A stretch of 64,000 nt of DNA, from NCBI GenBank assembly GCA_038150265.1, contig JAYOTF010000001.1, positions 126,690 through 190,689 of the forward strand. Direction: 5' to 3'. The stretch is from Deltaproteobacteria bacterium (GTDB lineage Bacteria; SAR324; NAC60-12). Both the position numbers and the translations under genes were made by a program. The notes beneath the pieces are model-generated. The model saw nothing but the letters and a program-made list of their open reading frames with translations. It had not been told where the DNA came from and ran no database searches. Below, piece by piece: positions 2-63,652 of the stretch (its first letter is position 1; the number at the start of each line of letters is the position of its first letter).

Positions 2-1312
2 CGACGCTTTCAGCTGCTCTTCGACCGCATTGGCGCCAAGCTGCATCACTACCAGACCCTGCTTTCCCACCCGTCTGGACTCTCTCGGATGGCGCGCATT
101 GCAGAAACCAGCGAGATGCTCTGGAATTACCTCATCAACCACCTTGAGCTGCTGGAGCAACTTGATTCGCCAGTGGACCTCTCTCAGGCAGACTGGGCGC
201 AGCAGCTCGCCGAAGGGCTGGCTGCACTTGATGACGAAGAGAGCAAGATTGACTTCCTCCGTCAGTTCAAGCACATGCACACCTTCCTCATTGGAAGTGC
301 CGAGCTGGAGGGCCTGCTTCCCTATGAAGAGGCACGCCGGGGCCTCACTGCACTGGCAGAGGTCATCACTCAGGGGGCACTGGAATTGACCATGACGCTC
401 CTCGGGCCTCGCTTTGGAGAACTGGAACCTGAAGGCGAAACGCCCATTCAGTTTGGAATCATCGGCATGGGGAAACTGGGCGGGTATGAGCTGACCTATC
501 ACTCGGACCTCGACCTGATCTTCATCTACAACGGCTCTGGCACCACCAACGGAAAGCGGGAGGTCGGCGCCCAGGAGTACTGGGTCAAGGTGGTCCAGCG
601 CCTCATCTCCATTTTGGGAACCATGACCCGGACCGGCTATGCCTACAAGCTCGATACCCGCTTGCGGCCTTCCGGAAACGCGGGCGTCCTCGTGACCCCT
701 CTTCAGGCGTACGTCCGCTATCACGAAAGCTCCCAACCCTGGGAGCACCAGGCGCTGATCAAGGGGCGGCTCGTGGGCGGAGTCGGAGGTCCGGAATGGA
801 CCCAGGAAATTCAGGGGCACCTGGAACACGCCGTTTACGAGTGGACGCTTCCGGAAGGCTTGCGGGAACAGATCACGCACCTGCGGCTTCGCAAGGAAAA
901 CGAGCTTTCCGGCGAGACGAAGACCCGCCGCAACCTCAAGGAAGGACGCGGAGGCCTGCTGGACATCGAATTTTTGGTGCAGTACCTCCAGCTGCTCCAT
1001 GGCCGACCGCATCCGGAGCTGCGAACGCCTCAGACGCTGGAAGCTCTGCACACCCTTGGGCAACTGGGCCTCTTGACACCGGAGGAGGCTCAGGCACTGG
1101 CGCAGGGCTACCGGCTGCTCCGGCTCGTCGAGAATGTTCTCCGTTTGCTGTATGATGAATCAACCAACACGCTCAACCTGGAGCAGTTGCCTGAGGACGT
1201 CCTCATGCCCATGCTTCGGCGGCAGGGTTATGAAACCGAGAACCTGCCCCAGTTGCTGTTGGACTCCACTGAAACCATCCGCTCCATCTATGAGCGGGTG
1301 ATGATCGCCTAA
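2..1312 (+). CDS. glnE: Glutamine synthetase adenylyltransferase, C-terminal part (runs off the window start)
   Basis: Frame open from nt 2; motifs GMGKLGGYELTYHSDLDLIF, DTRLRPSGNAG, WEHQAL, NLKEGRGGLLDIEF. Confidence 0.93.
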   Translation, partial: RRFQLLFDRIGAKLHHYQTLLSHPSGLSRMARIAETSEMLWNYLINHLELLEQLDSPVDLSQADWAQQLAEGLAALDDEESKIDFLRQFKHMHTFLIGSAELEGLLPYEEARRGLTALAEVITQGALELTMTLLGPRFGELEPEGETPIQFGIIGMGKLGGYELTYHSDLDLIFIYNGSGTTNGKREVGAQEYWVKVVQRLISILGTMTRTGYAYKLDTRLRPSGNAGVLVTPLQAYVRYHESSQPWEHQALIKGRLVGGVGGPEWTQEIQGHLEHAVYEWTLPEGLREQITHLRLRKENELSGETKTRRNLKEGRGGLLDIEFLVQYLQLLHGRPHPELRTPQTLEALHTLGQLGLLTPEEAQALAQGYRLLRLVENVLRLLYDESTNTLNLEQLPEDVLMPMLRRQGYETENLPQLLLDSTETIRSIYERVMIA

Positions 1313-1334
1313 ACGCTTCCACCGTCTTCACCCC

Positions 1335-3020
1335 ATGCTGCTCAGCCTGAAGCTGCAAAACCTGGCCACCATCAAGGAGCTTGACGTCGAGTTCAGCTCC
1401 GGATTTTCCATCATGACCGGAGAAACCGGAGCCGGGAAGTCCATCATGATTGACGCGATCCTGCTGGTTCTTGGAGGCAAGGGAGACCCCGGCATGGTCC
1501 GCTCGGGTGAAGAGAAGGCCACCATTGAAGCCGTGTTTGACCTGAACCGGCTCAAGGGGCTCCGGGAGCACCTGAAGGAGTCTGGAATTGAAGCCGATGA
1601 AGAGCTGATCATCCGCTGCCTCGTGCCCCGGCAGGGACGCCAACGGCGCTACGTCAACGGCGCCACTGTCACCGCTGAGTTCCTGCGGTCTCTGGGCAAA
1701 CGGTTGGTCAACATCCACGGCCAGCACGACAACCAGGCCCTGCTGCAGGTTTCCTCTCACCTCGACTTCCTCGACGGCTTCGGCCAGCTGTTTCCCCTCC
1801 GGGAAACCGTCACACAGCTTCACCAGCAGCACCAGCACCTGCTGCAGGAACAAAAGCGCCTCCTCAAGCGACTGGAAGCCCGGAATGCCCGCATGGAAGA
1901 ACTGGGGTGGGTCATTGAAGAGCTGGAGGAGCTGCAACTGCAGCGCGGAGAAGAGGAAGAGCTGCAGCAGGAGGCCCACCGACTTTCGCACACCGAGAAG
2001 CTGTCCCTGTGGTTTGGGCAGATCCTGGCGCAGCTCAATGATGCCGAGGGGTCGGTTCTTGAGCAGCTGGAATCCGTCCGCCGGGCGCTGGAAGATGCCG
2101 AACGCGTGGACCCCAAGTGCAGCGAAATGAAGAACGCCCTGGAGTCCGCCCTCTTTCAGGTGGAAGACGTCCACCGCCTCGCGGGTCGCTACACGGACAG
2201 CATTGAGGAGGATCCGGAGCGGCTGGCCTGGCTCAACGAACGGCTCAGCCGCATTCAACGCATCCAGCGCAAGCACCGGCGGGACACCTCTGACGCATTG
2301 ATCGACCTGCTGGAGCGCTCCCGGGAGGAACTTGCTGAGCTGAGCCACCTGGATGAAGACGGGCTGGAACTGCAACGACAGGTCGATGCCACCACCCAGG
2401 AGCTACGACTCAAGGCCCAGGAGCTTTCTGCAGCTCGACAGGAGCAGGCCGTTCAGCTGGACCAACAAATCGTTCACCAGCTGCAGGAGTTGGGGATGGA
2501 GAAGGCCCGCTTCCAGACTCAAATTGAAGCAGCTGATCCGGAAGAGGAGCTGAATGCCATTGGACCAACCGGTTCCGACGCTGTGGAGTTCCTGCTCTCC
2601 GTCAACCCAGGGCAGGACCTACGAAGCCTCGTCAAGGTCGCCTCCGGAGGAGAGCTGTCGCGCATCATGCTGGCGCTCAAGACGGTTCTGACGTCTTTGG
2701 ATACGGTGGAGATCTTGATCTTTGATGAGGTGGATACCGGCATCAGTGGGCGGGTCGCTGAGATCGTCGGCCTGAAGCTCCGGGAGCTGGGTTCTAGGCA
2801 CCAGACGCTCTGCATCACGCACCTGCCCCAGATTGCGGCCTTCTCCCAACAGCACTACGTGGTCACCAAAGAGGTCAAGGGCGAGCAGACCTTTACCCAC
2901 ATCCGCCTCCTGAAAACCACTGAGGAGAAGGCTCAGGAGCTGGCGCAGCTCATGGGTGGACAGGAGATCAGCTCCAACACGCTGCAACTGGCGCGGGAGA
3001 TGCTGACGCGTGCTTCCTGA
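1335..3020 (+). CDS. recN: DNA repair protein RecN
   Basis: Walker A TGETGAGKS, IHGQHD, ASGGELSR signature, FDEVDTG, CITHLPQ. Confidence 0.97.
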   Translation: MLLSLKLQNLATIKELDVEFSSGFSIMTGETGAGKSIMIDAILLVLGGKGDPGMVRSGEEKATIEAVFDLNRLKGLREHLKESGIEADEELIIRCLVPRQGRQRRYVNGATVTAEFLRSLGKRLVNIHGQHDNQALLQVSSHLDFLDGFGQLFPLRETVTQLHQQHQHLLQEQKRLLKRLEARNARMEELGWVIEELEELQLQRGEEEELQQEAHRLSHTEKLSLWFGQILAQLNDAEGSVLEQLESVRRALEDAERVDPKCSEMKNALESALFQVEDVHRLAGRYTDSIEEDPERLAWLNERLSRIQRIQRKHRRDTSDALIDLLERSREELAELSHLDEDGLELQRQVDATTQELRLKAQELSAARQEQAVQLDQQIVHQLQELGMEKARFQTQIEAADPEEELNAIGPTGSDAVEFLLSVNPGQDLRSLVKVASGGELSRIMLALKTVLTSLDTVEILIFDEVDTGISGRVAEIVGLKLRELGSRHQTLCITHLPQIAAFSQQHYVVTKEVKGEQTFTHIRLLKTTEEKAQELAQLMGGQEISSNTLQLAREMLTRAS

Positions 3021-3029
3021 AGCCGAAGC

Positions 3030-4979
3030 CTACTCTTCTGGTTTGGCCTTGGAGAAATCAAACTCCGGAGAATCCAACGCTGCTGCCGAGACCTGGCGGA
3101 TCTTGTCGATGGGCTTGTCTGCCACCCGGTTCCCTCGGGCCTGAGCGCCCTTGACCAGCAGGCTGTCAAACAGCACCAGCTCCCGGGTCTTGCGCAGGCG
3201 GGGCGCCGGAACAAACAGCGCCTCCAGCATCAGCCCGGCTCCCTGGCTGAAGTGCATGATCTTTGCGCCCCGAGCCTTGGGAAAGAGGCGGTATTCCTTG
3301 TCCAGAATGAACTTCTCCACCCGGAACCGCTTCGCGTAGCAGATCTGACTCTCTCCTTCCGAGTAGATGAGGTTGTACACCAGCTTGGGATCATGCAGGT
3401 CCAGCCGGTTCACGTCCTTTCCCACAAACAGCTTCTCTGGCACCTTGATCACCTGGTACCGCCCATCTTTCCGGAAGAGCACAATGCGGTCGAATTCCGA
3501 GCAGGTCAGCGTGTGGTTGCTCTTCACGGTGGTCCCAATGAAGCCGGACTGCTTGTCCCACCCCAGCTGCAGCGTCTCAGCGACATCCTTCATGCGGATC
3601 TCGTCAAAAGACGCAATTTCCGTCCGCCTTGGGTACAGCTCCCCGTAACTCTTGATGAGCCCCTCGAGGTAGGCGATGGCGTAAGCCGTCAGTTCCTTGA
3701 GGTGCTTCTTGACCTCCCGGATGCGTTTCTGCAGCTTCTTCAGGTTGGCTTCTGCCTCTTTTTGGTCAAAGCGGGAGATGCGCTTGATGGGAATGGCCAG
3801 CAGGGCTTCCAGGTCGTCCTTGGCAATGGGCAACTCCAGGTCCGGAAGGAGGGGCTGCATGCGCACCTCAACCTCCTTCAGAACCTCCTCATACGAGTCG
3901 CACTGCTCCAGCACCTGGTAGACGCGTTCCCTCAGGAAGTACAGCTCCAGCCGCCCCCGGTGCCACTTGTGCCGCAGCTGCTCCAGCTCCAGCTCCAGCT
4001 CCAGGCGCAGGAGGTGCAGCAGGCGGTCTGTCGCATGCGCCACCACCTCGCGGGTCGTCATCTGAACCGGCTGGTTGCCGCGAATCACCAAGAGGTTGAC
4101 CGAAATGGAGACCTCACACTGGGTAAAGGCAAACAGGGGCTTGAGCAGGTCCTTCGCCTGCACTCCACGCATCGCCTTCAGCTCCACAGCCACTTCTTCG
4201 GTGGTGAAGTCGTTGATGGACGCCACCTTGAGCTTCCCCTTGTTGGCTGCATCCTGAACCGACTGAATCAGGCTCTCTGTGGTCACACCAAAGGGGACGT
4301 CCTTGATGAGCAGCGTTTTGTCGTCCTGCACTTCCACCCGAGCTCGGATCCGGACCTTGCCGTTTCCATTCTGATACTGCTCCGGATCCATGATCCCGCC
4401 TGTAAGGAAGTCCGGAAGCAGGTCCCGCTGCTCTCCCTGAAGCCATGCGATCTGCGCCTGAAGCACCTCATTGAAGTTGTGCGGCAGGATCCGGGTCGAC
4501 ATGCCAACGGCGATTCCTTCGGCTCCCAGCAGCAGCGTCGCTGGAATCTTGCAGGGCAGGCGGACGGGTTCCTTGTTTCGACCGTCATAGCTTTCGACAA
4601 ACTCCGTCAGCTGCGGATTGAAGAGAACCTCGCGAGCCAGCGGGGTCAGGCGAGCCTCAATGTACCGGACCGCCGAGGCGGGATCCCCCGTGAAGAGGTT
4701 CCCGAAGTTCCCCTGCTTCTCAATGAAGTACTCCTTGTTTGCAATGACCACGAGCGCCGAGCCGATGGAGGCGTCTCCATGCGGGTGCAGCTTCATTGCC
4801 TCTCCGACGATGTTGGCCACCTTGCTGAACTTCCCGTCGTCCATCGTCCACATCGTGTGAAGGATGCGCCGCTGGACGGGCTTCAGGCCATCATCAACAT
4901 CGGGAATCGCCCGTTCCTTGATGACGTACGAGGCGTATTCCAGAAAATTCTGGTCCATCAAGGGTTTGAGATTCTGCAT
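3030..4979 (-). CDS. parC: Type IIA topoisomerase subunit A, short ParC-like form
   Basis: RAIPDVDDGLKPVQRR, HPHGD, catalytic RYIEARL, GIAVGM; 649 aa with no GyrA-box. Confidence 0.85.
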   Translation of the reverse strand: MQNLKPLMDQNFLEYASYVIKERAIPDVDDGLKPVQRRILHTMWTMDDGKFSKVANIVGEAMKLHPHGDASIGSALVVIANKEYFIEKQGNFGNLFTGDPASAVRYIEARLTPLAREVLFNPQLTEFVESYDGRNKEPVRLPCKIPATLLLGAEGIAVGMSTRILPHNFNEVLQAQIAWLQGEQRDLLPDFLTGGIMDPEQYQNGNGKVRIRARVEVQDDKTLLIKDVPFGVTTESLIQSVQDAANKGKLKVASINDFTTEEVAVELKAMRGVQAKDLLKPLFAFTQCEVSISVNLLVIRGNQPVQMTTREVVAHATDRLLHLLRLELELELEQLRHKWHRGRLELYFLRERVYQVLEQCDSYEEVLKEVEVRMQPLLPDLELPIAKDDLEALLAIPIKRISRFDQKEAEANLKKLQKRIREVKKHLKELTAYAIAYLEGLIKSYGELYPRRTEIASFDEIRMKDVAETLQLGWDKQSGFIGTTVKSNHTLTCSEFDRIVLFRKDGRYQVIKVPEKLFVGKDVNRLDLHDPKLVYNLIYSEGESQICYAKRFRVEKFILDKEYRLFPKARGAKIMHFSQGAGLMLEALFVPAPRLRKTRELVLFDSLLVKGAQARGNRVADKPIDKIRQVSAAALDSPEFDFSKAKPEE

Positions 4980-5011
4980 CCGTCAACCTTCCTGAAGCCG
5001 TCAGTGGGAGT

Positions 5012-6592
5012 TCAAAGAGAAATTTTTCGGGCGGAGGTAATTCCGGGACGATTGCGCAACTCGTCCACCACCGCTTCAGAGATGCCGTCATCCACGCGGA
5101 TCAGCGCCATGGCTTCGCCACCTTTGGTGTTTCGCGCCAGCTCAAACTGGTCGATGTTCACCCCCTGTGTCCCCAGCAGGGTTCCGATGACGCCCACCAT
5201 TCCGGGCTGATCCTGGTTGGTGGTGAGCAGAATGGTGCCCGTTGGTTCAATTTCACAAACGAACTCATTGACGAGCGTGATCCGGGAGTGCTGTCCACTG
5301 AAGACCACTCCTCCAATCTGAAACTTTCCTTCCGGACCCTGCAGCGTACACTTGAGGGCACTTTCGTAATCCGTGAAGCCCGGATCTGCCGTCTCCTCAA
5401 CCCGCAGGCCAGCAGCCACGGCACACTGGTCCGCGTTGACGTAGCTGACGTGCTCGTGCTTGTTTTCCAGGAATCCCTTGAGGAAGCTCAAGCGGAGCAG
5501 GGATCCTTCATGCCGAGCCAGGCTCCCCCGGAGCTTCAGCTCCAGCTGGTTGGGGGTGATGGTGGTGGCTTGTGAGGCAAAGCGTCCCAGGTTTTCTGCC
5601 AGCGCGGCATAGGTCCGGACCTGTGGATTGTCCAGCACCTGAACATTGGGCATGTTGACTGGAGAGTCCACGACCTCTCCCCGAAGCGCCCGAGGCACTT
5701 GTGTCCCGACTGACTCGGCAATCCGCATCTGGGCTTCCAGCGTCGAGGCTCCAATGTGCGGCGTCATCACCACGTTCGGAAAATCCTTGAATGCGTTTTC
5801 CTTGGGAGGCTCAATCTCCCAGGTGTCCACTCCTGCTGCTGCGACCCGTCCGGACTCAATGCCCTTCAGCAGGGCGGCTTCGTCAATCACTCCCCCACGA
5901 GCGGCGTTGAGGATGATCACGCCCTTTTTCATGCGGGCAAACTCATTGGCACCGAGCATGCCGGTGGTTTCCTTGTTTTTCGGAACGTGCAGGGTGATGA
6001 CGTCGGATTCCTCGACAAGCTCATCCCACGTGACCTTCTTGGCGTTGTGCCGCTCAAAGACCTCATCGGAGATGTAGGGGTCATAAGCATGGACCGTCAT
6101 GTCAAAGGCAGTGGCAAACCGGGCCACACGGTGTCCCACGTTTCCCAGTCCAATGATGCCAATGGTCTTCCCGAGCAGCTCAATGCCGGTGAAGGTGTGG
6201 CGGTCCCAGCGCAGGTTCTCCATGTGCTTGTGAGCCGGAATGACCTTCCGGATCGCATTGAGGAGCAGCCCCATCGTCAGTTCGGCGGCAGAGTTGGTGT
6301 TCTTGGCCGGCGTATTGAAGACCAGGATGCCCTTCTCAGTGGCATAATCGACATCGATGTTGCCGATGCCGACTGCTGCGCGGGCGATCACTTTCAGATT
6401 CGGTGCATGGTCAATCAACTCCCGAGTGATGGGAGTTTCTGAGCGAGACAGCACGCAGTGGTAGGGTTCCACAACGGAAAGGATCTCCTGGTACGGAAGA
6501 TCCGGAGAGTACGTCACCTCCAAATCCGGTTCCTGGTTGAGGAGCGTCAGGCCCACCTCATGGATGGATCCGGTAATCAGCACTTTGTACAT
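5012..6592 (-). CDS. serA: D-3-phosphoglycerate dehydrogenase with C-terminal ACT domain
   Basis: GIIGLGNVG, NAARGG, TPHIGAST; ACT motif DQPGMVG. Confidence 0.95.
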   Translation of the reverse strand: MYKVLITGSIHEVGLTLLNQEPDLEVTYSPDLPYQEILSVVEPYHCVLSRSETPITRELIDHAPNLKVIARAAVGIGNIDVDYATEKGILVFNTPAKNTNSAAELTMGLLLNAIRKVIPAHKHMENLRWDRHTFTGIELLGKTIGIIGLGNVGHRVARFATAFDMTVHAYDPYISDEVFERHNAKKVTWDELVEESDVITLHVPKNKETTGMLGANEFARMKKGVIILNAARGGVIDEAALLKGIESGRVAAAGVDTWEIEPPKENAFKDFPNVVMTPHIGASTLEAQMRIAESVGTQVPRALRGEVVDSPVNMPNVQVLDNPQVRTYAALAENLGRFASQATTITPNQLELKLRGSLARHEGSLLRLSFLKGFLENKHEHVSYVNADQCAVAAGLRVEETADPGFTDYESALKCTLQGPEGKFQIGGVVFSGQHSRITLVNEFVCEIEPTGTILLTTNQDQPGMVGVIGTLLGTQGVNIDQFELARNTKGGEAMALIRVDDGISEAVVDELRNRPGITSARKISL

Positions 6593-6695
6593 AAGGACTT
6601 CTGGGGAAAGGGCAATACGGGAACTTTGGTTCGGTCAAACCTAGTACTTTCCCACACTTTCCGGGACGAATAAAGACGGAACCTCGCGGAGAGGC

Positions 6696-7016
6696 TTACA
6701 AAGAGGAGGAATTTTTGTAGAACGGAGTGGGCTTGAGGAAGAGGCGGGAGCGCTTGGGCTGAACCCGTTCCTGCAGAAAATCGATGCCGCTCAGCAGTTC
6801 AGAGGAGGCAGGGGTGGACCGGGAAGCAGACGAGGGGGGTGGTGACGTGGGCTGGTGCATGCGCTGCTCCAGCGCATCGATGACCCGCATCATTTCCCGA
6901 CGCTCCTGTTGGTCCTGAGACCGTTGTTGAATGAGTTGCTCGCTCATGGAAACCAGGCGTTCACTCATGTCAATCAGGCGATCGTAGCGTTCTTCGAAAG
7001 TCTTTCGGGTACTCAT
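6696..7016 (-). CDS. Hypothetical protein (coiled-coil N-terminus, Pro/Ser linker)
   Basis: 106-aa ORF with GGAG RBS; protein-like composition. Confidence 0.6.
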   Translation of the reverse strand: MSTRKTFEERYDRLIDMSERLVSMSEQLIQQRSQDQQERREMMRVIDALEQRMHQPTSPPPSSASRSTPASSELLSGIDFLQERVQPKRSRLFLKPTPFYKNSSSL

Positions 7017-7171
7017 TTCTCCATCAACAACTCAGGTTCACTGCTGATGAGTCTAAGCCGGGAACAAACGAGCGCAAGCGTAAAAGGGCAACTCCTCGCT
7101 CCGGCCCCCCACACGCAATGGAGGCAGCCAGGAGCGGAAGCATCCGGAACCAAGCGTTCCGGGAACTGAGT

Positions 7172-7209
7172 GATTGATTATTGACAATAATAATTCAATC
7201 GTCTATAAA
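7172..7209 (+). promoter_or_regulatory. Near-consensus sigma70 promoter overlapped by an AT-rich inverted repeat
   Basis: TTGACA (7181-7186), 17 bp spacer, TATAAA (7204-7209); TTATTG-A-CAATAA and GATTGA...TCAATC dyads. Confidence 0.7.
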
Positions 7210-7215
7210 ACCGAG

Positions 7216-7425: not shown

Positions 7426-7433
7426 ACGGTTCA

Positions 7434-56057: not shown

Positions 56058-56093
56058 GCAGAATGCCCTGCTCATCAAAACAGGAGGACTCTT

Positions 56094-56348: not shown

Positions 56349-56929
56349 TCGTCCAGCGGTTGTTCCGGAGCCTGCTTCCGGAGCAGCTGCACCCGAATCG
56401 TCCCATACGTTTTTTCCCGCACCAGCTCGAGCCCGGAAGGCCGCTTCAGCTCCTTTTCCACCGGACTCTCCACCACCAGCCACGACCCCTCCGGAACCGA
56501 CGGCAGCGTTGCCAGCAGCAGCACGACCGAATCATACAGGTTGGACTGATAAGGTGGATCAAGGAAGACCACGCACGGGCGCTGATCGGGGTTGACGAAG
56601 GTGGGCAGCCACCGTTCCGCTCGGTCCTGAAGCACCTCTGCCTGGTCGGAGCCCACGCCCAGGGTGTCGAGGTTGTGGCGCAGCACCTGGAGGTGCTTGC
56701 GCGAGGAATCGAGCCAGATCACCCGCTCGGCTCCGCGGCTGAGCGCTTCCAGCCCCAGGGCGCCACTTCCGGCAAAGAGGTCCAGCACCAGCTTGTCCGA
56801 CCAACTCAGCGCATGATCAAGCATGCTGAAGAGGGCCTCCCGGACCCGGTCGGTGGTGGGGCGGACGCCTTTTCCCTCTGGGACCTGAAGCTTGCGTCCC
56901 CGCCAGGTTCCCGCAATAATGCGAAGCAT
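56345..56929 (-). CDS. rsmD: 16S rRNA m2G966 methyltransferase
   Basis: RIIAG, RPTTDRVRE, LDLFAGSG, EALSRGA, DPPY. Confidence 0.95.
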   Translation of the reverse strand: MLRIIAGTWRGRKLQVPEGKGVRPTTDRVREALFSMLDHALSWSDKLVLDLFAGSGALGLEALSRGAERVIWLDSSRKHLQVLRHNLDTLGVGSDQAEVLQDRAERWLPTFVNPDQRPCVVFLDPPYQSNLYDSVVLLLATLPSVPEGSWLVVESPVEKELKRPSGLELVREKTYGTIRVQLLRKQAPEQPLDD

Positions 56930-56954
56930 TGATACTCGTTACTGAAGCAAACGT

Positions 56955-57455
56955 TTGGAATCGTTCTTTTTAGGCTTGGGAAGCAACCTGGGCGATCGCC
57001 TGGGCTTCCTGAATCGGGCCTGTCACCTGCTGGAACAAACCCTGGGCCCGTTGCAGGGGTCGCCTGTTTACGAAAGCATCCCGCTCCTGGGAATGGATCA
57101 GCCGCTGTACTGCAACCAGGTGGTGTCAGGAACCACCACCCTTCCGCCTCAGGTGCTCCTGCAACTGTGCCTGGAGGTGGAGCAGCAGCTCGGACGCGTC
57201 CGGACGGAACACTGGGGCCCGCGGACCATTGACATTGATGTGCTGGCGTATGGCGCCCACATCATTGAGGAGCCCGGCCTGAAGGTGCCGCATCCGGGGG
57301 TGGAGCAACGGAGCTTCGTGCTGCTGCCGTGGATGAGCCTGGATCCGGACTGGCAGCACCCCCGAAGCGGGCTCAGTGTGGCGCAGCTTTGGGCGAAGTG
57401 GCAAGCGCAGGCCACCGAAGCGCTTCCGCAGCCTGTGAGCGGTTCCTCTAGCTGA
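56955..57455 (+). CDS. folK: 2-amino-4-hydroxy-6-hydroxymethyldihydropteridine pyrophosphokinase
   Basis: LGLGSNLG, WGPRTIDID, VPHP, RSFVL. Confidence 0.95.
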   Translation: MESFFLGLGSNLGDRLGFLNRACHLLEQTLGPLQGSPVYESIPLLGMDQPLYCNQVVSGTTTLPPQVLLQLCLEVEQQLGRVRTEHWGPRTIDIDVLAYGAHIIEEPGLKVPHPGVEQRSFVLLPWMSLDPDWQHPRSGLSVAQLWAKWQAQATEALPQPVSGSSS

Positions 57456-58167
57456 ACAGGTCTGGCTGCTGCGGGGGCAGGGGCAGGCTGCGAGGAGCAG
57501 ACTCCGGAACCGGATCCAGCAGGCCGGGGAGGTCCTGAGCCACCGAGTTCACGGCTGTGGAAACCGGCCACGCCTGCAGCCATGCGTCCGGACAGGGCTT
57601 CAGCAGCTTCAGCCACTCGGCATCCGGGCGCCGACGTTCCTCCAGCCACTCCCACAGCTGAGCCTCATTGAGCAGCGCGGGCATGCGCTCATGCAGCGGC
57701 GCCATGAAGCCGTTGGCCGCAGTCGTCACAATCGCGACGGTGTGCTTGCGCGTCTGAGACGCCTGATCGACCCAGGTGTCGCAAATCCCTGCCAACCCCA
57801 TGGGCTTCCCGGATTTCAGAGAGATGAAGTGAGGCTGCTTGCCGGAGGGCTTCGTTTTCCACTCGTAAAAACCGGAGGCGGGAACCACGCACCGTTGCCT
57901 CCGAAGCGGTACCCGGAAGGAAGGCTTCTCCGCCAGCGTTTCAGCACGAGCGTTGATGAGGGGGCGGAATCCGGGCTTGGCCCACGCGGGGAGGAGCCCC
58001 CACTCACGCGTCTCCAGCCGACGGAGCCCATCTTGCTGGAGGATCACGGAAATGTCCTGGGTGGGGGCGCGGTTGAAGCCGGTGTGGACGGGCGACTCCG
58101 CGACCTGCACGGAGAAGTGCTCCATGAGGTCGGGCTCACGTTCATTGAGGACAAACCGACCGCACAT
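57448..58167 (-). CDS. SRAP/YedK abasic-site crosslinking protein
   Basis: MCGRF start, INARAET, GFYEW, HERMP. Confidence 0.93.
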   Translation of the reverse strand: MCGRFVLNEREPDLMEHFSVQVAESPVHTGFNRAPTQDISVILQQDGLRRLETREWGLLPAWAKPGFRPLINARAETLAEKPSFRVPLRRQRCVVPASGFYEWKTKPSGKQPHFISLKSGKPMGLAGICDTWVDQASQTRKHTVAIVTTAANGFMAPLHERMPALLNEAQLWEWLEERRRPDAEWLKLLKPCPDAWLQAWPVSTAVNSVAQDLPGLLDPVPESAPRSLPLPPQQPDLFS

Positions 58168-58169
58168 GG

Positions 58170-59264
58170 TCAGGAGGCGAGGTTCAGCAGGGTGGCCCGG
58201 GAGCCCCCGAGCGCTTCCATGGAAAGAAGGATTTGCTCCCAGGTGGTGTCATCAATCGGGATGCCCTCGGCTTCCCGAAGGGCCCGGGTGGCGCGTTCCG
58301 GATCGCCTGCAACCTGCACCGGAGTACCGGCCTGAGCAGCCGGAGACTCCTTGAAGTACTGCACCAGGGAGGCAACGCCTTGCTCCATCCATCCGGAATC
58401 GACGAGCCGGTTGGGGTCAATGAGCAGGGTCATCATGTTGTTGATGATGCTTCCTTCCCGGGGGTGATCGGGCGCAATGGTACCGCCGCCACTGAGAAGC
58501 CCGCCGAGCAGCTCGCAGAACATCGCCAGCCCGTAGCCCTTGTAATCGCCCATGGGGGTCAGGGCGCCTTTGGGGGGAAGGGAGGGCTGTTCCGGAAAGA
58601 GGTAGGCGCCCATGACGGCAGGGTCCTGGCTGGGCTGCCCCTGGTGGTCAATGACCAGGCCTTCGCGGAGGGTCTCGCCTTTGTTGAGCGCGACCCGGAC
58701 CTTCCCGAGCGCGACCCGGCTGGTCGCCATGTCCAGCAGCAGCGGAGGTTGCTGTTCAGAGCCTGGCATGGCGAGGCACACGGGGTTGGTGGCAAAGCGT
58801 GCATCGGAGCCGCCGTACGGAGCAACCAGCGGGGAGTGATCGGTGACATTGACAAAATGCAGCGATACCAGTCCGGCAGCAATGGCCTGCTCCCCGTAGG
58901 TGCCGATGCGTCCGATGTGGTGGGCGTTCCGGAGGGTCATGAGGACGAGTCCGGACTGCTGGCAGTGCGCAATGGCCTGCTCCATCGCCTGACGCGCCAC
59001 GGCCTGTCCGTACCCGCGTTGCCCGTCAAACATGAGGATCGATCCATCTTGCTTGACGCGAGCCACGGTTTGGTTCGGGGTCAGAAGCCCGGCCTGCAGG
59101 TTCCGGACGTAGATCGGCAGCATGCCGACGCCATGGCTGTCGTGACCCGTCAGGTTGGCGCCGACGAGGTGACGGGCGACGACCTCTGCCTCGGTAGAGG
59201 TGCTGCCTCCTTGCTGAAGGAGGGCAACCACCACCTGGGTGAGCGATTCAGGAGACAGGAGCAT
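58170..59264 (-). CDS. Ldh_2 family (malate/lactate/ureidoglycolate) dehydrogenase, YbiC-like
   Basis: GHDSHG, HHIGRIG, TNP, LDMATS, YKGYGL. Confidence 0.9.
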   Translation of the reverse strand: MLLSPESLTQVVVALLQQGGSTSTEAEVVARHLVGANLTGHDSHGVGMLPIYVRNLQAGLLTPNQTVARVKQDGSILMFDGQRGYGQAVARQAMEQAIAHCQQSGLVLMTLRNAHHIGRIGTYGEQAIAAGLVSLHFVNVTDHSPLVAPYGGSDARFATNPVCLAMPGSEQQPPLLLDMATSRVALGKVRVALNKGETLREGLVIDHQGQPSQDPAVMGAYLFPEQPSLPPKGALTPMGDYKGYGLAMFCELLGGLLSGGGTIAPDHPREGSIINNMMTLLIDPNRLVDSGWMEQGVASLVQYFKESPAAQAGTPVQVAGDPERATRALREAEGIPIDDTTWEQILLSMEALGGSRATLLNLAS

Positions 59265-59294
59265 GGCGCCCTCCGCTGGAGTTGAGGAACCGCT

Positions 59295-60488
59295 TCACGC
59301 TCCCGTGAAGGCCTGGAGTCCGGTCTGAGCGCGTCCGAGGATCAGCGCGTGGATGTCGTGGGTGCCTTCGTAGGTGTTGACGGTCTCGAGGTTGATGAGG
59401 TGCCGCATGACGTGGTACTCGTCGGAAATGCCATTGCCGCCGTGCATGTCTCGGGACTGCCTGGCGGCGTCCAGGGCCTTGCCGCAGTTGTTGCGCTTCA
59501 TCATCGAAATCAGTTCCGGAGGGCACTGCCCTTCGTCCATGAGCCGAGCCATGCGCAGGCATCCCTGCAGGCCCAGGGTGATTTCGGTTTGCAGGTCGGC
59601 CAGCTTCTTCTGGATGAGCTGGTTGGCGGCCAGGGGGCGTCCGAACTGGCTGCGGTCCAGGGTGTACTGCCGGGCGGCATGCCAGCAGAATTCGGCGGCG
59701 CCCAGGGTGCCCCAGGCGATTCCGAAGCGGGCCTTGTTGAGGCAGCCGAACGGACCCTTCAGGCCTTCCACGTTGGGCAGCTCATTTTCTGCTGGAACAA
59801 AGACCTCGTTCATGACGATCTCGCCTGTGATGGAGGCCTTGAGAGAAAGCTTCCCCCCGATCTTGGGGGCACTGAGTCCGTCCATGCCCTTCTCCAAAAT
59901 GTAGCCCCGGATCTTCCCAGCGTCGTTTTTGGCCCACACGACAAAGACATCCGCAATGGGCGAGTTGGTGATCCACATCTTGGCACCCGTTAGCTGAAAG
60001 CCACCGTCTACGGTCTTGGCGCGGGTCTCCATGCCACCCGGATCAGAGCCGTGGTCGGGTTCGGTCAGGCCAAAGCAGCCCACCCATTCGCCGGTGGCAA
60101 GCTTCGGAAGGTACTTCTGCCGCTGCGCTTCCGAGCCGTAGGCGTAGATGGGGTGCATGACGAGGCTGGACTGAACGCTCATGGCCGATCGGTACCCGGA
60201 GTCAACGCGCTCCACCTCGCGAGCAATGAGGCCATAGGCCACATGGTTGGCCCCGACGCCGCCGTATTCCTCCGGGATGGTTGCTCCCAGGAAACCCAAC
60301 TCCCCGAGTTCAGTCATGATGTCTCGGTCGAAGTACTCCTGGCGGGTGGCTTCCAGGATGCGGGGCATGAGTTTGGACTGGCAGTACTCGTGGGCGGTGT
60401 CACGAATCAACCGCTCCTCTTCAGTCAGCTGATCATTCAGCGACAGGGGATCGGACCAATCAAAGGTAGCGCGAGCAGACTGAGACAT
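59295..60488 (-). CDS. gcdH: Glutaryl-CoA dehydrogenase
   Basis: [48 protein letters not shown]. Confidence 0.95.
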
Positions 60489-60684
60489 ACGGGAACCTCC
60501 GGAATGCAGTAAGAATTTAACAACACTTCATGTTAGGGGGCCTGTCGGGGTTTCGCAACGGAAATCACCGGGTTTCAGAGGGGAGCGAACCCGGCGGCGG
60601 TGGGGGATTCGCATTGAAAGCCTTGGGGGAATGCACTATTCTGCAACCCTTGAATCGACAACTTCACAGCAAGGTGTGCTCCTC

Positions 60685-61158
60685 ATGCGATGGACAAAAT
60701 CAATAGTGGCTTTTTGTGGACTCCTGCTCTTCTCCGGATCCCTGGTTTGGGGCCTGACGGACGCCGAATTCGAGAAGCGCTTTCTGGCCCTCTCCGACGC
60801 GTTGCGGTGTCCCACTTGCCAGGGTTTGTCCGTCAAAGACTCTGAGGCCGGTTTTTCGGAGCACATGAAGCAGAAGATTGAAGAGATGATCCGGGCCGGA
60901 AAGACGGATGAGGAGGTGAAGGCGTTCTTTGTGGACCGTTACGGACAGTGGATCCTCCGGGAGCCTCCCAAAACGGGCTTCAACTTGTTGCTTTGGGTGC
61001 TTCCGGGCGCAGGGTTGGTGCTGGGGCTGGTGGTGGTGCTGATGCGGTCCCGGAAGTGGGTCAGGGAGCCAGAAGCGGAGCTGCCTGAGGAAGATGCCCT
61101 GAGCCCGGAAGAGCGGGCTCGCATTGCGAAGGACCTGGAGCGCTATGAAAATAGCTAG
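60685..61158 (+). CDS. ccmH: Cytochrome c-type biogenesis protein CcmH
   Basis: LRCPTCQ, FFVDRYG, PP-LLWVLP plus TM segment. Confidence 0.9.
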   Translation: MRWTKSIVAFCGLLLFSGSLVWGLTDAEFEKRFLALSDALRCPTCQGLSVKDSEAGFSEHMKQKIEEMIRAGKTDEEVKAFFVDRYGQWILREPPKTGFNLLLWVLPGAGLVLGLVVVLMRSRKWVREPEAELPEEDALSPEERARIAKDLERYENS

Positions 61159-61164
61159 GCCCAT

Positions 61165-62193
61165 TCAAGGCTTGAGGCGGAAGGCGTTGAAGTTGTCGAA
61201 GTTGATGCGGAAGTCAAAGCGATCCTCAGCCTGATGCTCCTTCAGGTAGCTCTGGTAGAGGTGCCCTTCGCGCTTGAGGTAAGACTCCACAAAGGAGTCG
61301 TCAAACGGCTCGCGGCTGTCAATTTCAAACATCCGGGACGCAGCCTCCTTGGGAGACACATCCAGGTGAATCCGGAGGTCAAAGAGGTTCTCGAAGTCCG
61401 GCAGGAACAGGGTGGAGCCCCAGACGAGGAAGATGCTTTCCGGAGGCGCGTAGAAGGGGAACATCGTGACCTCAAGGGCTTCCAGAAACGAAGGGCTTTT
61501 CTCCTGAAGCACCACCTCGCCTCGGGAGAAGGGGTGGAGGACACCGTCCAGCACCCAGGAGCGGGCTTCCGGAGAGTGCCAGTACCCGGAGTGGGCAAAC
61601 TCCAGCCCGAGCAGCTCAGTGAGGTCCAGTCCGGCAACAAGGAGGCCGAACTCTTCCAGAGCCTCCACGAGTTCGCCGACAAAAAAGGCGTGCCCACAGT
61701 CTTCCGGCCCACCAATTCCAAGGGTCAGCGGCATCTGCGGAGATGCCTCCTTGAGGTCTCGAAGCCGGATTGCCAGTTCGAGGGCGGTGTTGCGGCTGGG
61801 GTGGAAGATTTCCAGCAGGTCGTTGAGGTACTGGTATTGCAACCCTCCGTGTTCGCGCACGGCCTCTTCTCCTCCGCCAAAGCGGAGTTGCTGCTGGGCC
61901 AGCCACTCCAGGGCGACGGGCGCATGAGAGATCCAGAAGGTGTCCGGAGCCTGCAGCTGAGGGTTCTGAGTGGCCACCTCTTGCGGGGTGCCCTTCACCA
62001 CAGACAGGTGATCCAGGTCTCCCCAGGTCGTCAGGTCCGGCTCCTCGGAAAGCAGCAGCAGTCGGAATCCCCGCTCATCGAGAATCCGGAGGATTTCCCG
62101 GAAGTTCAACAGACGATCTCCAGAAAGCTCGGTTCCAAGGCTGTCTAAGTCAAATGCGAGTTGTTGGATCTGATTGGGGTGAAAATCGTCCAT
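61165..62193 (-). CDS. Hypothetical protein: degenerate HAD-like plus uridine-kinase-like fusion
   Basis: LAFDLDSL N-terminal motif; TLGIGGPEDCGHAF altered P-loop; FDLRIHLDV. Confidence 0.6.
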   Translation of the reverse strand: MDDFHPNQIQQLAFDLDSLGTELSGDRLLNFREILRILDERGFRLLLLSEEPDLTTWGDLDHLSVVKGTPQEVATQNPQLQAPDTFWISHAPVALEWLAQQQLRFGGGEEAVREHGGLQYQYLNDLLEIFHPSRNTALELAIRLRDLKEASPQMPLTLGIGGPEDCGHAFFVGELVEALEEFGLLVAGLDLTELLGLEFAHSGYWHSPEARSWVLDGVLHPFSRGEVVLQEKSPSFLEALEVTMFPFYAPPESIFLVWGSTLFLPDFENLFDLRIHLDVSPKEAASRMFEIDSREPFDDSFVESYLKREGHLYQSYLKEHQAEDRFDFRINFDNFNAFRLKP

Positions 62194-62248
62194 AAACGTG
62201 AAGGTTTGCTTGTGGGTGGGAAATAATGCCTAAAACCAACAGTTTTTC

Positions 62249-63652
62249 ATGCTGAAGCGGCACAACCAAGTCTTCTTTTCCCTGCTCCGTGTGGGCGATG
62301 GCGCTCTCGCTTTTCTGGCGTGGGAGCTGGCCTACCAGCTGCGGTTTTTGTGGATCAACTGGCCTGCGGCACCTGTGCCTCCGAGTCATCATGCCTACCT
62401 GGTCGCGGCAGGCGTGGTGGCCCTGTTGGCAATGGTGGCATTTGGAGCCGCCGGAGTGTATGAGGCGCACGGCAAACGCACCTGGAGGCAGGAGCTGTGG
62501 ACGCTGATCCAGGGCACCCTGGCGCTGGTGGTGCTGGGTGTGGGCGCCGCTTTCTTTTACCGGGATTTTTCCTACTCCCGGGTCCACATTGTGTACTTCA
62601 CCGGCACCATGTTTGCCCTGCTGGTGGTCCTGCGGATGCTCATCCGGGGCCTCATGGGGTGGCTGCATGCCCGAGGCAAGCACCTTGAGCGGGTGCTGGT
62701 GATCGGGTCCGGAAGCTCGGCAGCAGAGCTGGTCCGGAAGCTTCAGGGGCTGCAGTCCGCCGGCTTGCGCCTGGAAGGGGTGGTGGAGGTCAAGGAATCG
62801 ACACAGTCGCAGATTCCGGAAGGCGTCCGCCGACTGGGAAGCCTGGACAGCGTGAACAGCGTGATTGTGCAAAATCGGATTGATCAGGTCTTTGTGGCTC
62901 TGTCTGCAGATGAGCAGCACCGCCTCAGTGAGCTGCAGGAAATCCTGGCCGAGCAGTGGGTCGACGTCCGGATTGTCCCCGACCTGGGAGGCTTCCGGAC
63001 GCTGCATGTCGCTGCAGAGGACTTTGAGGGGATCCCGATGATCACCGTGGTGCAGAGTCCCCTGGAAGGCTGGAACCGTGTTCTCAAGCGGACACTGGAC
63101 CTGCTGGGCGCAGTTGCGGCACTGATTCTCTTTGGGCCGATCATGCTGCTGGTGGCGGCCATGGTGAAGCTGACGTCACCGGGGCCGATCCTGTACCAGC
63201 AAGAGCGCATGGGGCTGGACGGCCGCATCTTTCAGGCGCTGAAGTTTCGCTCCATGCGGGTGGATGCAGAAACCAAGACCGGGGCTGTCTGGGCCACTGC
63301 CCATGACGACCGGCGGACTCCGATTGGCACCTTCTTGCGGAAAACCAGCCTTGACGAACTGCCCCAGCTCTTCAATGTGCTGCGGGGGGAGATGAGCCTC
63401 GTTGGGCCTCGTCCGGAGCGCCCGGTCTTCATTGAGCAATTCAAGAGCAAGATTCCGGACTACATGCTCCGGCACAAGGTCAAGGCCGGCATCACGGGTT
63501 GGGCTCAGATCAATGGCTGGCGGGGCAACACGTCTCTGGAAAAACGCATTGAGTGCGACCTCCACTACATCGAGCACTGGTCCCTCTGGTTCGATGTCAA
63601 AATCCTCCTCCTGACCCCCTTCAAGGGGTTCATTGACAAAAACGCCTATTAG
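62249..63652 (+). CDS. wcaJ: Undecaprenyl-phosphate glucose phosphotransferase
   Basis: KRTLD, KFRSM, LDELPQ, MSLVGPRPER, GITGWAQING. Confidence 0.93.
   Translation: MLKRHNQVFFSLLRVGDGALAFLAWELAYQLRFLWINWPAAPVPPSHHAYLVAAGVVALLAMVAFGAAGVYEAHGKRTWRQELWTLIQGTLALVVLGVGAAFFYRDFSYSRVHIVYFTGTMFALLVVLRMLIRGLMGWLHARGKHLERVLVIGSGSSAAELVRKLQGLQSAGLRLEGVVEVKESTQSQIPEGVRRLGSLDSVNSVIVQNRIDQVFVALSADEQHRLSELQEILAEQWVDVRIVPDLGGFRTLHVAAEDFEGIPMITVVQSPLEGWNRVLKRTLDLLGAVAALILFGPIMLLVAAMVKLTSPGPILYQQERMGLDGRIFQALKFRSMRVDAETKTGAVWATAHDDRRTPIGTFLRKTSLDELPQLFNVLRGEMSLVGPRPERPVFIEQFKSKIPDYMLRHKVKAGITGWAQINGWRGNTSLEKRIECDLHYIEHWSLWFDVKILLLTPFKGFIDKNAY

What the first reader, a model, noticed from the sequence alone, without database searches (positions are those of the whole stretch)
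671..63001. Highly iterated palindrome TCCGGA: a HIP1-like system outside cyanobacteria?
Seen: TCCGGA recurs across the window. By hand I count about 22 copies in nt 1-10000 (e.g. 671, 790, 850, 1012, 1398, 2213, 2537, 2643, 3064, 3470, 3841, 4349, 4381, 4411) and about 15 in 24200-27000. Base composition alone (~60% GC) predicts roughly 3 per 10 kb. Copies lie in genes on both strands and in all three codon phases (TCC-GGA Ser-Gly, CGG Arg, CCG-GAx Pro-Glu/Asp), so amino-acid need alone is an unlikely cause. One-off variants TCCGGG/CCCGGA are also common. Known: 6-bp palindromes are usually avoided in bacteria; the main exception is cyanobacterial HIP1 (GCGATCGC), linked to DNA methyltransferases. 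TCCGGA is the BspEI/AccIII/Kpn2I site. Inference: a methylation-coupled biased repair process, or a chromosome organisation or uptake signal, enriches this site in this lineage.
Basis: partly seen in the sequence, partly recalled or inferred. Interest (0 to 1): 0.85.

Follow-up and report, generated by a model that had tools for sequence, protein, structure and literature searches.

The report
Hyper-abundant, helically phased TCCGGA palindrome
An uncultured SAR324-group bacterium and many of its relatives carry the six-letter palindrome TCCGGA about eight times more often than chance, in genes and between them, and space the copies by whole turns of the DNA helix, which suggests an unidentified protein reads the chromosome through this word.

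Summary
TCCGGA occurs 193 times in the window (about 24 expected) and 9,711 times in the 3.39-Mb genome. It is the top hexamer under every null I tried, including synonymous codon shuffling (4.1x) and a 4th-order Markov model (rank 1 by z). Density is nearly equal in coding and intergenic DNA, and 41% of all places the proteins allow are written as TCCGGA.

Copies are independent single sites. They avoid each other at 11-17 bp and prefer spacings of whole helical turns (10.4 bp), a signal the amino-acid sequence does not explain. The phasing replicates in two other genera, one with a ~4-bp offset.

The trait is patchy in the phylum. By ratio to a control palindrome, at least 32 of 72 genomes are enriched, and other lineages have almost purged the word.

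The best reading is a selected binding word for an unidentified dimeric DNA-binding or bridging protein, a HIP-like system with a new property.

This scan had already noted the palindrome, the saturation and the phasing on another piece of this genome (e1-7657551). I re-tested and extended those claims. No paper describing it was found.

The parts
671..63686 (.). 193 dispersed single copies of the palindrome TCCGGA (179 inside called genes, 14 intergenic)
   Evidence: One search lists all coordinates (193 vs 23.6 expected). One search gives the coding/intergenic split and shows all six strand-by-phase classes occupied (16-42 each).
4349..4416 (.). Three sites at 4349, 4381 and 4411, spaced 32 and 30 bp (about 3 helical turns each)
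   Evidence: An example of the in-phase spacing that is significant genome-wide.
43828..43938 (.). Three sites at 43828, 43881 and 43933, spaced 53 and 52 bp (5 helical turns each)
45813..45859 (.). Pair spaced 41 bp (4 turns)
63412..63459 (.). Pair spaced 42 bp (4 turns)
16843..16856 (.). Close pair spaced 8 bp. It belongs to the short-range 6-10 bp class that precedes the 11-17 bp exclusion zone.
   Evidence: Genome-wide, 11-17 bp holds 39 pairs against 154 expected.
22520..22533 (.). Close pair spaced 8 bp
12107..12352 (.). Context only: a candidate replication origin spacer that holds no TCCGGA. The nearest sites are at 12067 and 12466, and the flanks have ordinary density.
Evidence: The GC-skew sign change near 12 kb agrees. 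Site list.

Best explanation
TCCGGA is a selected chromosomal 'word'. It is most likely the binding site of an abundant, symmetric (dimeric), sequence-specific DNA-binding protein that has not been identified. Bound copies would interact with one another along the helix by bridging, looping or short filaments. Weak selection keeps the density of sites high and places neighbouring sites in a fixed rotational register, while individual sites keep turning over.

Shown: the excess, its independence from coding, the phasing, the short-range exclusion, the turnover, the patchy phylogeny, and the lack of any tracking methyltransferase or Vsr. Inferred: that a protein reads the site, that it is dimeric, and that the function is nucleoid organisation.
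For: 1. DNA-level signal. Intergenic density is close to coding density (2.41 vs 2.92 per kb). The excess is 4.1x over a synonymous shuffle. TCCGGA fills 8,639 of 21,036 synonymous opportunities, or 41%. A codon-order shuffle gives still fewer sites (1,263) than the synonymous shuffle (2,078), so dipeptide choice is also bent towards the word.

2. The exact hexamer matters. O/E is 8.67 with both flanks, 1.4-2.3 with one and 0.66-0.89 with none. Flanking positions show only a weak preference (T at -1 in 32% of sites) and no longer motif.

3. Helical phasing in G000. The pair-distance spectrum peaks at 10.4-10.6 bp, with zero phase at 10.4. Power is 1,220 against a null of 54 +/- 46 (max 224 of 200 simulations) that fills amino-acid-permitted places at random. 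Against a null with 452 context-specific probabilities it is 1,220 vs 70 +/- 49 (max 271 of 300). Pairs in different codon phases carry the signal as strongly as same-phase pairs (power/mean 27.9 vs 23.3). Control hexamers lack it. It is strong to about 100 bp and detectable to about 300 bp.

4. A footprint-like exclusion: 39 pairs at 11-17 bp against 154 expected.

5. Replication in other genera. G018 (GC 43%) has power/mean 25.7 at 10.4 bp with zero phase, peaks 3-4x the mean, and 323 close pairs against 212 for Poisson. G013 (GC 57%) has power 96.5 against a null of 3.8 +/- 3.7 (max 19.6 of 300), but its preferred distances are shifted by about -4 bp. G002 is weaker at 5.7.

6. Phased pairs are not repeat copies. 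Spacers are unrelated (mean best identity 0.31-0.36) and there is no information content outside the hexamers.

7. No phased A/T pattern surrounds isolated sites, so the signal is site-to-site and not general curvature.

8. Retention above codon level with heavy turnover. In 997 identical amino-acid contexts between G000 and G002, P(site|site) is 0.58 and P(site|no site) is 0.20. Excess retention is 0.25/0.48/0.30 against 0.13/0.31/0.13 for other encodings.

9. Even spread: 632 windows of 5 kb have mean 14.5, variance 16.4 and minimum 3.
Against: No reader gene was found, and no unbiased presence/absence screen could be run.

No operator-like arrays point to an autoregulated gene. The densest clusters hold 4 sites in 70-125 bp, and 17 of 21 of them are coding.

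In-phase pairs are not detectably better conserved than out-of-phase pairs: 15/71 vs 7/43 both conserved, p = 0.63, underpowered. Lost and gained sites do not keep phase (100 hybrid pairs, power 0.18).

Phasing among pairs that involve intergenic sites is only suggestive (483 pairs, power/mean 2.7-2.8). Within this window alone it is invisible (20 in-phase vs 18 out-of-phase pairs).

The different phase offset in G013 is unexplained.

Higher retention of sites is equally expected under a biased-conversion drive. A two-site enzyme that converts near-cognate sites next to an in-phase cognate site could in principle mimic the phasing. Gene calls are my own crude ones.
Confidence: 0.5

Rival explanations
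1. Methylation-linked system, the HIP1-style or Dam/SeqA-style reading. An orphan methyltransferase marks TCCGGA, and a methyl-reading function selects for many sites. That function could be strand discrimination for mismatch repair (as Elhai proposed for HIP1), sequestration of new DNA, or self-recognition.
For: HIP1 is tied to orphan methyltransferases (Elhai 2015, PMC4390886, abstract and passages). G000 has two methyltransferase-like genes with an SPPY motif IV, and I recall that motif being typical of N4-cytosine enzymes. I also recall that SeqA prefers GATC pairs on one helical face, which would fit the phasing.
Against: No PF00145, PF03852 or PF02384 in a 97.8%-complete genome. The C45 enzyme is in only 2 of 31 genomes.

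The C51-type protein is intact in non-enriched genomes (G003, G014, G006, G019, G020, G023 and others). It carries degenerate motif IV (APPA, NPPM, RPPL, RPPF, HPPL) in five enriched genomes. It was not found in the Bdellovibrio-like genomes, and its weak family matches are as close to RNA methylases as to DNA methylases.

All 30 proteins with a [DNS]PP[YFWH] motif were scanned, and the only extra candidate does not track the trait. Sites do not cluster at the candidate origin. A methyltransferase of an unrecognised family cannot be excluded.
Confidence: 0.15
2. Mutational drive. A sequence-specific repair or gene-conversion bias (VSP-like or another kind) turns near-cognate hexamers into TCCGGA, with no function for the sites themselves.
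For: All codon phases and intergenic DNA are affected alike. Individual sites turn over rapidly. The distribution along the genome is near-Poisson. One of the 40 listed strain differences is TCTGGA to TCCGGA.
Against: No Vsr and no C5 methyltransferase. Single-difference variants between G000 and G002 fall mainly at third codon positions, with no dominant C/T class at the inner cytosines. The one-off neighbours TCTGGA/TCCAGA are not depleted (O/E 2.57). A site-by-site bias predicts neither the 10.4-bp phasing, nor the 11-17 bp exclusion, nor a lineage-specific phase offset.
Confidence: 0.12
3. DNA uptake or recombination tag. The word marks 'self' DNA for natural transformation or homologous exchange, like DUS/USS, or like the role recently suggested for HIP1.
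For: The first lines of the abstract of bioRxiv 10.1101/2024.09.10.611283, and the title and first abstract lines of PMC13756078 (both seen only in the search listing), link HIP1 to transformation efficiency and horizontal transfer. The even genome-wide spread resembles that of uptake sequences, which I recall.
Against: A hexamer is a poor specific tag. As I recall, known uptake sequences are 9-12 bp, not palindromic, and not reported to be helically phased. Nothing in this analysis ties the sites to terminators or to competence genes, which were not searched.
Confidence: 0.07
4. By-product of restriction pressure on CCGG-containing sites. Other CCGG contexts are purged, and T/A-flanked copies survive because they are immune.
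For: Other NCCGGN palindromes are rare in G013 (CCCGGG 0.16, GCCGGC 0.22, ACCGGT 0.25) and mildly so in G000 (0.66-0.68). Earlier scan notes describe phages that keep CCGG only as TCCGGA (e1-5953881 and e1-5739844, untested here). Other lineages of the phylum purge TCCGGA itself.
Against: Survival cannot raise a word to 8.7 times expectation or to 41% of all synonymous opportunities. In G018 the other CCGG contexts are not depleted (0.69-2.6), yet TCCGGA is at 8.7. It does not explain the phasing.
Confidence: 0.05
5. Intrinsic DNA mechanics. TCCGGA is a bendable or flexible element, and in-phase copies are selected for curvature or supercoil handling without a dedicated reader.
For: Same-face spacing is what phased bends would need.
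Against: No accompanying phased A/T-G/C pattern. The specificity for one hexamer over its one-off relatives is extreme. The -4 bp offset in G013 is hard to reconcile with one fixed DNA property.
Confidence: 0.06

Closest known systems
HIP1 (GCGATCGC) of cyanobacteria
   Same: A short palindrome, hyper-abundant in coding and non-coding DNA, about one per gene or more. It is conserved somewhat above codon-level expectation but with selection thought to act on distribution more than on single instances. Its function is unknown, and it is patchy among relatives. Sources: Xu et al. 2018, PMC5861425 (abstract and passages); Elhai 2015, PMC4390886 (abstract and passages).
   Different: A different word, and a hexamer rather than an octamer. 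A different phylum. No associated orphan methyltransferase was found here. The published HIP1 periodicity is on a 10-90 kb scale, and the word 'helical' does not occur in that paper. Here the periodicity is one DNA turn (10.4 bp), with an 11-17 bp exclusion zone.
Alternate HIPs of cyanobacteria, notably RCCGGY in Oscillatoria PCC 10802 (Elhai 2015, passages)
   Same: A CCGG-core 6-mer palindrome that replaces HIP1 as the dominant over-represented word in one lineage.
   Different: The flanks differ (R/Y, not T/A). It is reported in a single cyanobacterium, and the passages read report no helical phasing. TCCGGA itself occurs 0 times in that paper.
GATC/Dam with SeqA in enterobacteria (recalled, not tested here)
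   Same: A palindromic word read by a protein that prefers two copies on the same helical face one to a few turns apart. This is the nearest known logic for phased pairs.
   Different: GATC is not several-fold over-represented. That system needs Dam methylation and clusters at the origin. Here no tracking methyltransferase was found and there is no clustering at the origin. SeqA itself was not searched for.
Helically phased operator pairs of DNA-looping repressors and two-site (tetrameric) CCGG-family restriction enzymes (recalled)
   Same: Two symmetric sites are bound together, and short-range cooperation depends on helical phase. The preferred phase depends on protein geometry, which could explain the G013 offset.
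   Different: Those are local, at a few loci, or nucleolytic. Here roughly 10,000 sites are spread over the whole chromosome. PF07832, PF09015 and PF09019 were not detected in G000, but the controls for those searches were silent.
DNA uptake sequences (Neisseria DUS, Pasteurellaceae USS; recalled)
   Same: A lineage-specific short word, hundreds to thousands of copies, evenly spread, in genes and between them.
   Different: Those are longer, not palindromic, and not known to be helically phased.

Membership tests
Highly iterated palindromes (HIP class, as described for cyanobacteria) | A short palindromic oligomer far above Markov expectation and the top word of its length in the genome | tested here: met
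   O/E 8.67 to 2.39 for orders 0-3. Rank 1 by count, by synonymous-shuffle ratio and by order-4 z-score.
Highly iterated palindromes (HIP class, as described for cyanobacteria) | Present in coding and non-coding DNA, and not explained by codon usage | tested here: met
   2.92 vs 2.41 per kb, with intergenic O/E 7.75. 4.13x over a synonymous shuffle.
Highly iterated palindromes (HIP class, as described for cyanobacteria) | Instances conserved between relatives more than comparable sequences | tested here: met
   Excess retention 0.25/0.48/0.30 against 0.13/0.31/0.13 for other encodings in 997 matched contexts. The effect is modest, with heavy turnover.
Highly iterated palindromes (HIP class, as described for cyanobacteria) | Co-occurrence with orphan DNA methyltransferases that recognise the word or its core | tested here: not met
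   No C5 enzyme. Three methyltransferase-like genes do not track the trait. Their specificities are unknown, and an unrecognised enzyme family cannot be excluded.
Highly iterated palindromes (HIP class, as described for cyanobacteria) | Kilobase-scale (10-90 kb) periodicity along the chromosome | not tested
   The assembly is in 87 contigs. Only 5-kb window counts were examined.
HIP1 proper | The octamer GCGATCGC | tested here: not met
   The word here is TCCGGA. CGATCG is under-represented in G000 (O/E 0.40).
Dcm/Vsr-type very-short-patch repair bias | A C5 cytosine methyltransferase together with a Vsr endonuclease | tested here: not met
   PF00145 and PF03852 were not found in the 97.8%-complete genome. 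Both searches rang in control genomes.
Dcm/Vsr-type very-short-patch repair bias | Depletion of the T-for-C one-off neighbours of the target | tested here: not met
   TCTGGA/TCCAGA have O/E 2.57.
DNA uptake sequences (DUS/USS) | A 9-12 bp non-palindromic word with a conserved extended context | tested here: not met
   A six-base palindrome with only weak flanking preferences.
Dispersed repeat or mobile element (REP/MITE-like) | Copies share flanking or spacer sequence | tested here: not met
   No information content outside the hexamer. Spacers of phased pairs are unrelated.
Dam/SeqA-type sequestration system | A SeqA-family protein and site clustering at the origin | tested here: inconclusive
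   No clustering at the candidate origin. The SeqA family was not searched.

The most novel reading that the evidence does not exclude
A whole family of SAR324-phylum bacteria uses TCCGGA as a sequence-programmed 'chromatin code'. In this reading, a still unknown symmetric DNA-binding protein bridges pairs of sites set whole helical turns apart. The protein might have been domesticated from the TCCGGA-directed restriction systems whose footprint (near-total purging of the word) is seen in sister lineages. Nucleoid architecture would then be written into about 40% of all permissible codons, and the protein's geometry would have shifted in one genus (the 4-bp offset in G013).
Probability: 0.3. 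Interest if true: 0.9.

Novelty: new variant of a known kind. Interest (0 to 1): 0.8.

Why it matters
Highly iterated palindromes have been a cyanobacterial puzzle for thirty years, with no agreed function.

This case sits in another phylum and uses another word. It has no tracking methyltransferase. It also has a property not reported for HIP1: spacing locked to the DNA helical repeat, with a footprint-sized exclusion zone. That narrows the mechanism to something that reads two sites in a fixed rotational register, which can be tested directly by pull-down, DAP-seq, methylome and Hi-C.

The trait is on in some genera and off in others, and the word is purged in still others of the same phylum. 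Comparative genomics should therefore be able to name the responsible gene.

It also shows that a DNA-level constraint can dictate about 40% of the synonymous choices at Ser-Gly, X-Pro-Glu/Asp and [FILV]-Arg-X positions and bias dipeptide use. That matters for codon-usage models and for binning and annotation of these abundant marine bacteria.

Tried and rejected
1. Codon or amino-acid artefact: rejected.

2. Longer motif or repeat family: rejected.

3. C5 methyltransferase plus Vsr: not found. PF02384 was not found. PF02086 hit only the C51 protein.

4. C45 N6/N4 methyltransferase: sits next to a reverse transcriptase and occurs in only G000 and G001.

5. C51-type methyltransferase-like protein: no correlation with the trait.

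6. 830-aa C3 protein: no correlation.

7. Bacterial histone fold (PF00808): 0 matches in the enriched relatives, and only in G006.

8. CCGG-family restriction folds PF07832, PF09015 and PF09019: no match in G000, but the tool's control genomes were silent too, so this shows little.

9. Phased A/T pattern around sites: none.

10. Operator-like arrays that might flag a reader gene: none.

11. Motif-free 'foreign' islands: none.

12. Better conservation of in-phase pairs: not seen, underpowered.

13. Strain differences from public runs: all 19 runs are held only as contigs, so no modification signal could be sought. Of the 40 differences shown (292 in all), 0 lie in a site and 1 creates one, which is too few to interpret.

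14. Bdellovibrio-like genomes: whole-genome ratio 4.2-4.6 in four of them. In 475 kb of G033, however, the word is only rank 7 (O/E 4.5), all CCGG contexts are mildly raised, and 141 pairs show no exclusion and no phasing. I do not count this as the same phenomenon.

15. Rfam scan of the window: no match.

16. One search failed on a wrong reading frame and was re-sent without that item.
Full report
**Observation**

The window holds 193 copies of TCCGGA, against 23.6 +/- 5.1 (maximum 36) in 100 dinucleotide-preserving shuffles. The window is G000:C1:126690-190689 of a 3.39-Mb, 87-contig, 61% GC assembly rated 97.8% complete.

Genome-wide there are 9,711 sites, one per 349 bp, making TCCGGA the commonest hexamer on a single strand. 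Observed/expected is 8.67, 7.57, 3.95, 2.39 and 1.22 under Markov orders 0 to 4. The order-4 figure is close to 1 only because that model conditions on the 5-mers TCCGG and CCGGA. These are themselves the most over-represented 5-mers (3.1x), and 54% of them lie inside the hexamer. By z-score the hexamer is still first of 4,096 (z 35.2). Given a CCGG core, O/E is 8.67 with both a 5' T and a 3' A, 1.4-2.3 with one of them and 0.66-0.89 with neither. The flank odds ratio is 2.04. Beyond the hexamer there is only a weak preference (T at -1 in 32% of sites) and no longer motif.

**Not a coding artefact**

I made crude gene calls of my own: 2,766 genes covering 87.5% of the genome. With them, density is 2.92 per kb in genes and 2.41 per kb between them, and intergenic O/E is 7.75. 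Sites occupy all three codon phases (2,038/2,392/4,260) and both strands.

Shuffling synonymous codons within each gene keeps the proteins and the codon usage. It leaves 2,078 +/- 36 sites against 8,641 observed, a 4.13-fold excess that is the largest of 3,878 hexamers. Permuting whole codons leaves 1,263, so dipeptide usage is also bent towards the word.

Of 21,036 places where the protein sequence permits TCCGGA, 8,639 (41%) carry it. By class that is 34% of Ser-Gly, 38% of [FILV]-Arg-[IKMNRST] and 49% of X-Pro-Asp/Glu. The sites are spread evenly: 632 windows of 5 kb have mean 14.5, variance 16.4 and minimum 3, with no motif-free islands.

**Helical phasing**

I treated both claims as leads and re-tested them.

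The histogram of distances between sites peaks at 9, 19-20, 30-31, 41-42, 51-52, 61-63, 72, 81-84 and 93-95 bp. Spectral power peaks at 10.4-10.6 bp, with zero phase at 10.4 bp, and equals or exceeds the 3-bp coding signal. Eight control hexamers show at most a weak 10.5-10.9-bp peak, always below their own 3-bp signal.

Because protein alpha-helices could give a similar period, I built nulls that keep every amino-acid sequence and fill the permitted places at random. Observed power at 10.5 bp is 1,220. The per-phase null gives 54 +/- 46 (maximum 224 of 200 simulations). A null with 452 context-specific probabilities gives 70 +/- 49 (maximum 271 of 300). Pairs in different codon phases carry the signal as strongly as pairs in the same phase (27.9 vs 23.3).

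The phasing is strong to about 100 bp and detectable to about 300 bp. Sites avoid each other at 11-17 bp, with 39 pairs against 154 expected. Pairs that involve intergenic sites are too few to decide (483 pairs, power/mean 2.7-2.8). In this window alone the phasing is not visible (20 in-phase vs 18 out-of-phase pairs).

Spacers of phased pairs are unrelated, and no information lies outside the two hexamers. No phased A/T pattern surrounds isolated sites. There are no dense arrays.

**Relatives**

GyrB places the organism in the SAR324 / 'Lambdaproteobacteria' lineage (record titles). TCCGGA is among the top three hexamers in 18 of the 32 closest gyrB loci, at GC contents from 37% to 58%, and unremarkable in the other 14.

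Whole-genome counts against the equal-composition palindrome AGGCCT cover 72 genomes of the phylum:

| Group | Genomes with ratio >= 3 | Other values |
|---|---|---|
| Family f1 | 23 of 36 (12/12 in genus g11, 3/3 in g12, 3/3 in g1) | ~1 in 6 of 6 genomes of genus g2 |
| Family f2 | 0 of 15 | - |
| Family f7 | 8 of 16 | - |

The word is almost purged elsewhere: 15-267 sites against 1,435-1,882 controls in six genomes of f7, and likewise in G023, G059 and G060. The control palindrome is itself avoided in some genomes, so these ratios are rough.

Direct O/E on fetched DNA:

| Genome | GC | DNA examined | O/E |
|---|---|---|---|
| G002 | 60% | 260 kb | 7.7 |
| G013 | 57% | first 400 kb of 766 kb | 8.0 |
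| G018 | 43% | 662 kb | 8.7 |

Phasing replicates in the relatives:
- **G018** has power/mean 25.7 at 10.4 bp with zero phase. Peaks at 20-22, 30-33 and 41-43 bp reach 3-4 times the mean, and there are 323 close pairs against 212 for Poisson.
- **G013** has power 96.5 against a null of 3.8 +/- 3.7 (maximum 19.6 of 300) and 32% saturation. Its preferred distances (9, 27, 37.5, 48, 57.5, 68) are about 4 bp shorter than in G000. I cannot explain this offset.
- **G002** is weaker at 5.7.

Four Bdellovibrio-like genomes have ratios of 4.2-4.6. In 475 kb of one of them, however, the word is only seventh by O/E (4.5), all CCGG contexts are mildly raised, and 141 pairs show neither exclusion nor phasing. 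I do not count them as the same phenomenon.

**Turnover**

G002 is collinear with the window at 82% nucleotide identity. Over 179 of 182 genes of contig C1, amino-acid identity is 88% and four-fold-site identity is 51.5%. In that region G000 has 587 sites and G002 has 489, and 274 are shared.

In 997 places with identical amino-acid context, P(site|site) is 0.58 and P(site|no site) is 0.20. TCCGGA encodings are retained 1.5-2.3 times better than other synonymous encodings. Turnover is still heavy, and differences show no dominant C/T class at the inner cytosines. In-phase pairs are not detectably better conserved (p = 0.63, small sample).

**Methylation and repair**

No C5 methyltransferase, Vsr or PF02384 enzyme was found, and those searches rang in control genomes. 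All 30 predicted proteins with a [DNS]PP[YFWH] motif were scanned against Pfam. Three candidates emerged:
- **C45 enzyme.** A 258-aa N6/N4 enzyme beside a reverse transcriptase, found in only 2 of 31 genomes.
- **C51-type protein.** A conserved methyltransferase-like protein, cut by a contig end in G000 and 579-730 aa in relatives. Its motifs are intact in enriched and non-enriched genomes alike and degenerate in five enriched genomes.
- **C3 protein.** An 830-aa protein present in only 5 of 31 genomes.

None tracks the trait. The public runs that hold this DNA are kept only as contigs, so modification could not be examined. Strain differences were too few to interpret. Sites do not cluster at the candidate origin at 12.1-12.35 kb.

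**Interpretation**

The excess acts on DNA, not on proteins. It is specific to one exact symmetric hexamer, is maintained against turnover, and is coupled between neighbouring sites through the geometry of the double helix, with a footprint-sized exclusion zone. A repair or mutation bias that acts site by site does not predict that coupling.

The simplest model is a symmetric protein that binds the hexamer and interacts with a second bound copy in a fixed rotational register. Selection would act on density and spacing rather than on individual sites. The different register in G013 would then reflect a change in protein geometry. This is an inference: no reader gene was found. Histone folds and three CCGG-family restriction folds were sought without result, and the controls for the latter were silent.

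**Literature**

Six full-text searches found no description of TCCGGA over-representation in bacteria, SAR324 or Bdellovibrio. TCCGGA occurs 0 times in Elhai 2015. That paper does describe RCCGGY as an alternate HIP in one cyanobacterium. The published HIP1 periodicity is 10-90 kb, and 'helical' occurs 0 times in Xu et al. 2018. Papers outside the searched library, and supplements, were not seen.

Noticed in passing
window 12107-12352 and surroundings (gyrB at 14567-16990): Candidate replication origin. GC skew changes sign from negative to positive near 12 kb. The region holds no TCCGGA and shows no clustering of the word.
   Followed up: partly
L081:35-3159 (G000 contig C45): A reverse transcriptase (RVT_1, 469 aa) overlaps the start of a 258-aa N6/N4 DNA methyltransferase with an SPPY motif, followed by a 311-aa ORF with no Pfam match. 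The methyltransferase is found only in G000 and G001, so the module looks like a mobile defence-type element.
   Followed up: partly
L097-L102 and L162-L175 (C51-type gene in 20 genomes): A methyltransferase-like protein conserved across the order, in a housekeeping context (BacA and EamA neighbours in G013). It has motif I DPFMGGGT and motif IV (S/N)PPYPGTYDY, and a variable N-terminal extension. Five genomes carry motif IV variants that lack the aromatic residue (APPA, NPPM, RPPL, RPPF, HPPL). Its substrate is unknown.
   Followed up: partly
G070, G072-G076, G023, G059, G060: Other lineages of the same phylum have almost eliminated TCCGGA, for example 15, 25 and 31 sites in 3.1-3.4 Mb against about 1,400-1,700 of the control palindrome. 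This is as expected under a TCCGGA-directed restriction system.
   Followed up: no
G013 sample (L122-L161): The other NCCGGN palindromes are strongly avoided (CCCGGG 0.16, GCCGGC 0.22, ACCGGT 0.25), and AGGCCT is rare (254 in 3.4 Mb), while TCCGGA is at 8.0.
   Followed up: no
G000 genome-wide: CTAG-containing hexamers are extremely rare (CCTAGG and ACTAGT at O/E 0.03). GAGCTC is under-represented (order-4 O/E 0.43) while GAGCTG/CAGCTC is the second strongest order-4 excess (z 34.9). This hints at a second site-specific pressure.
   Followed up: no
G000 coding regions: The hexamers TCAATG/CATTGA and TCATTG are 2.4-2.8 times above the synonymous-shuffle expectation, an unexplained codon-pair or DNA-level bias.
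   Followed up: no
L190-L193 (G006 contigs C7 and C488): The 12-Mb genome G006 holds eight histone-fold matches in duplicated blocks. No other relative has any. This may be contamination or a repeated foreign element.
   Followed up: no
G002:C1:135090-137576: The G002 orthologue of the 830-aa methyltransferase-like protein has one in-frame TAG.
   Followed up: no
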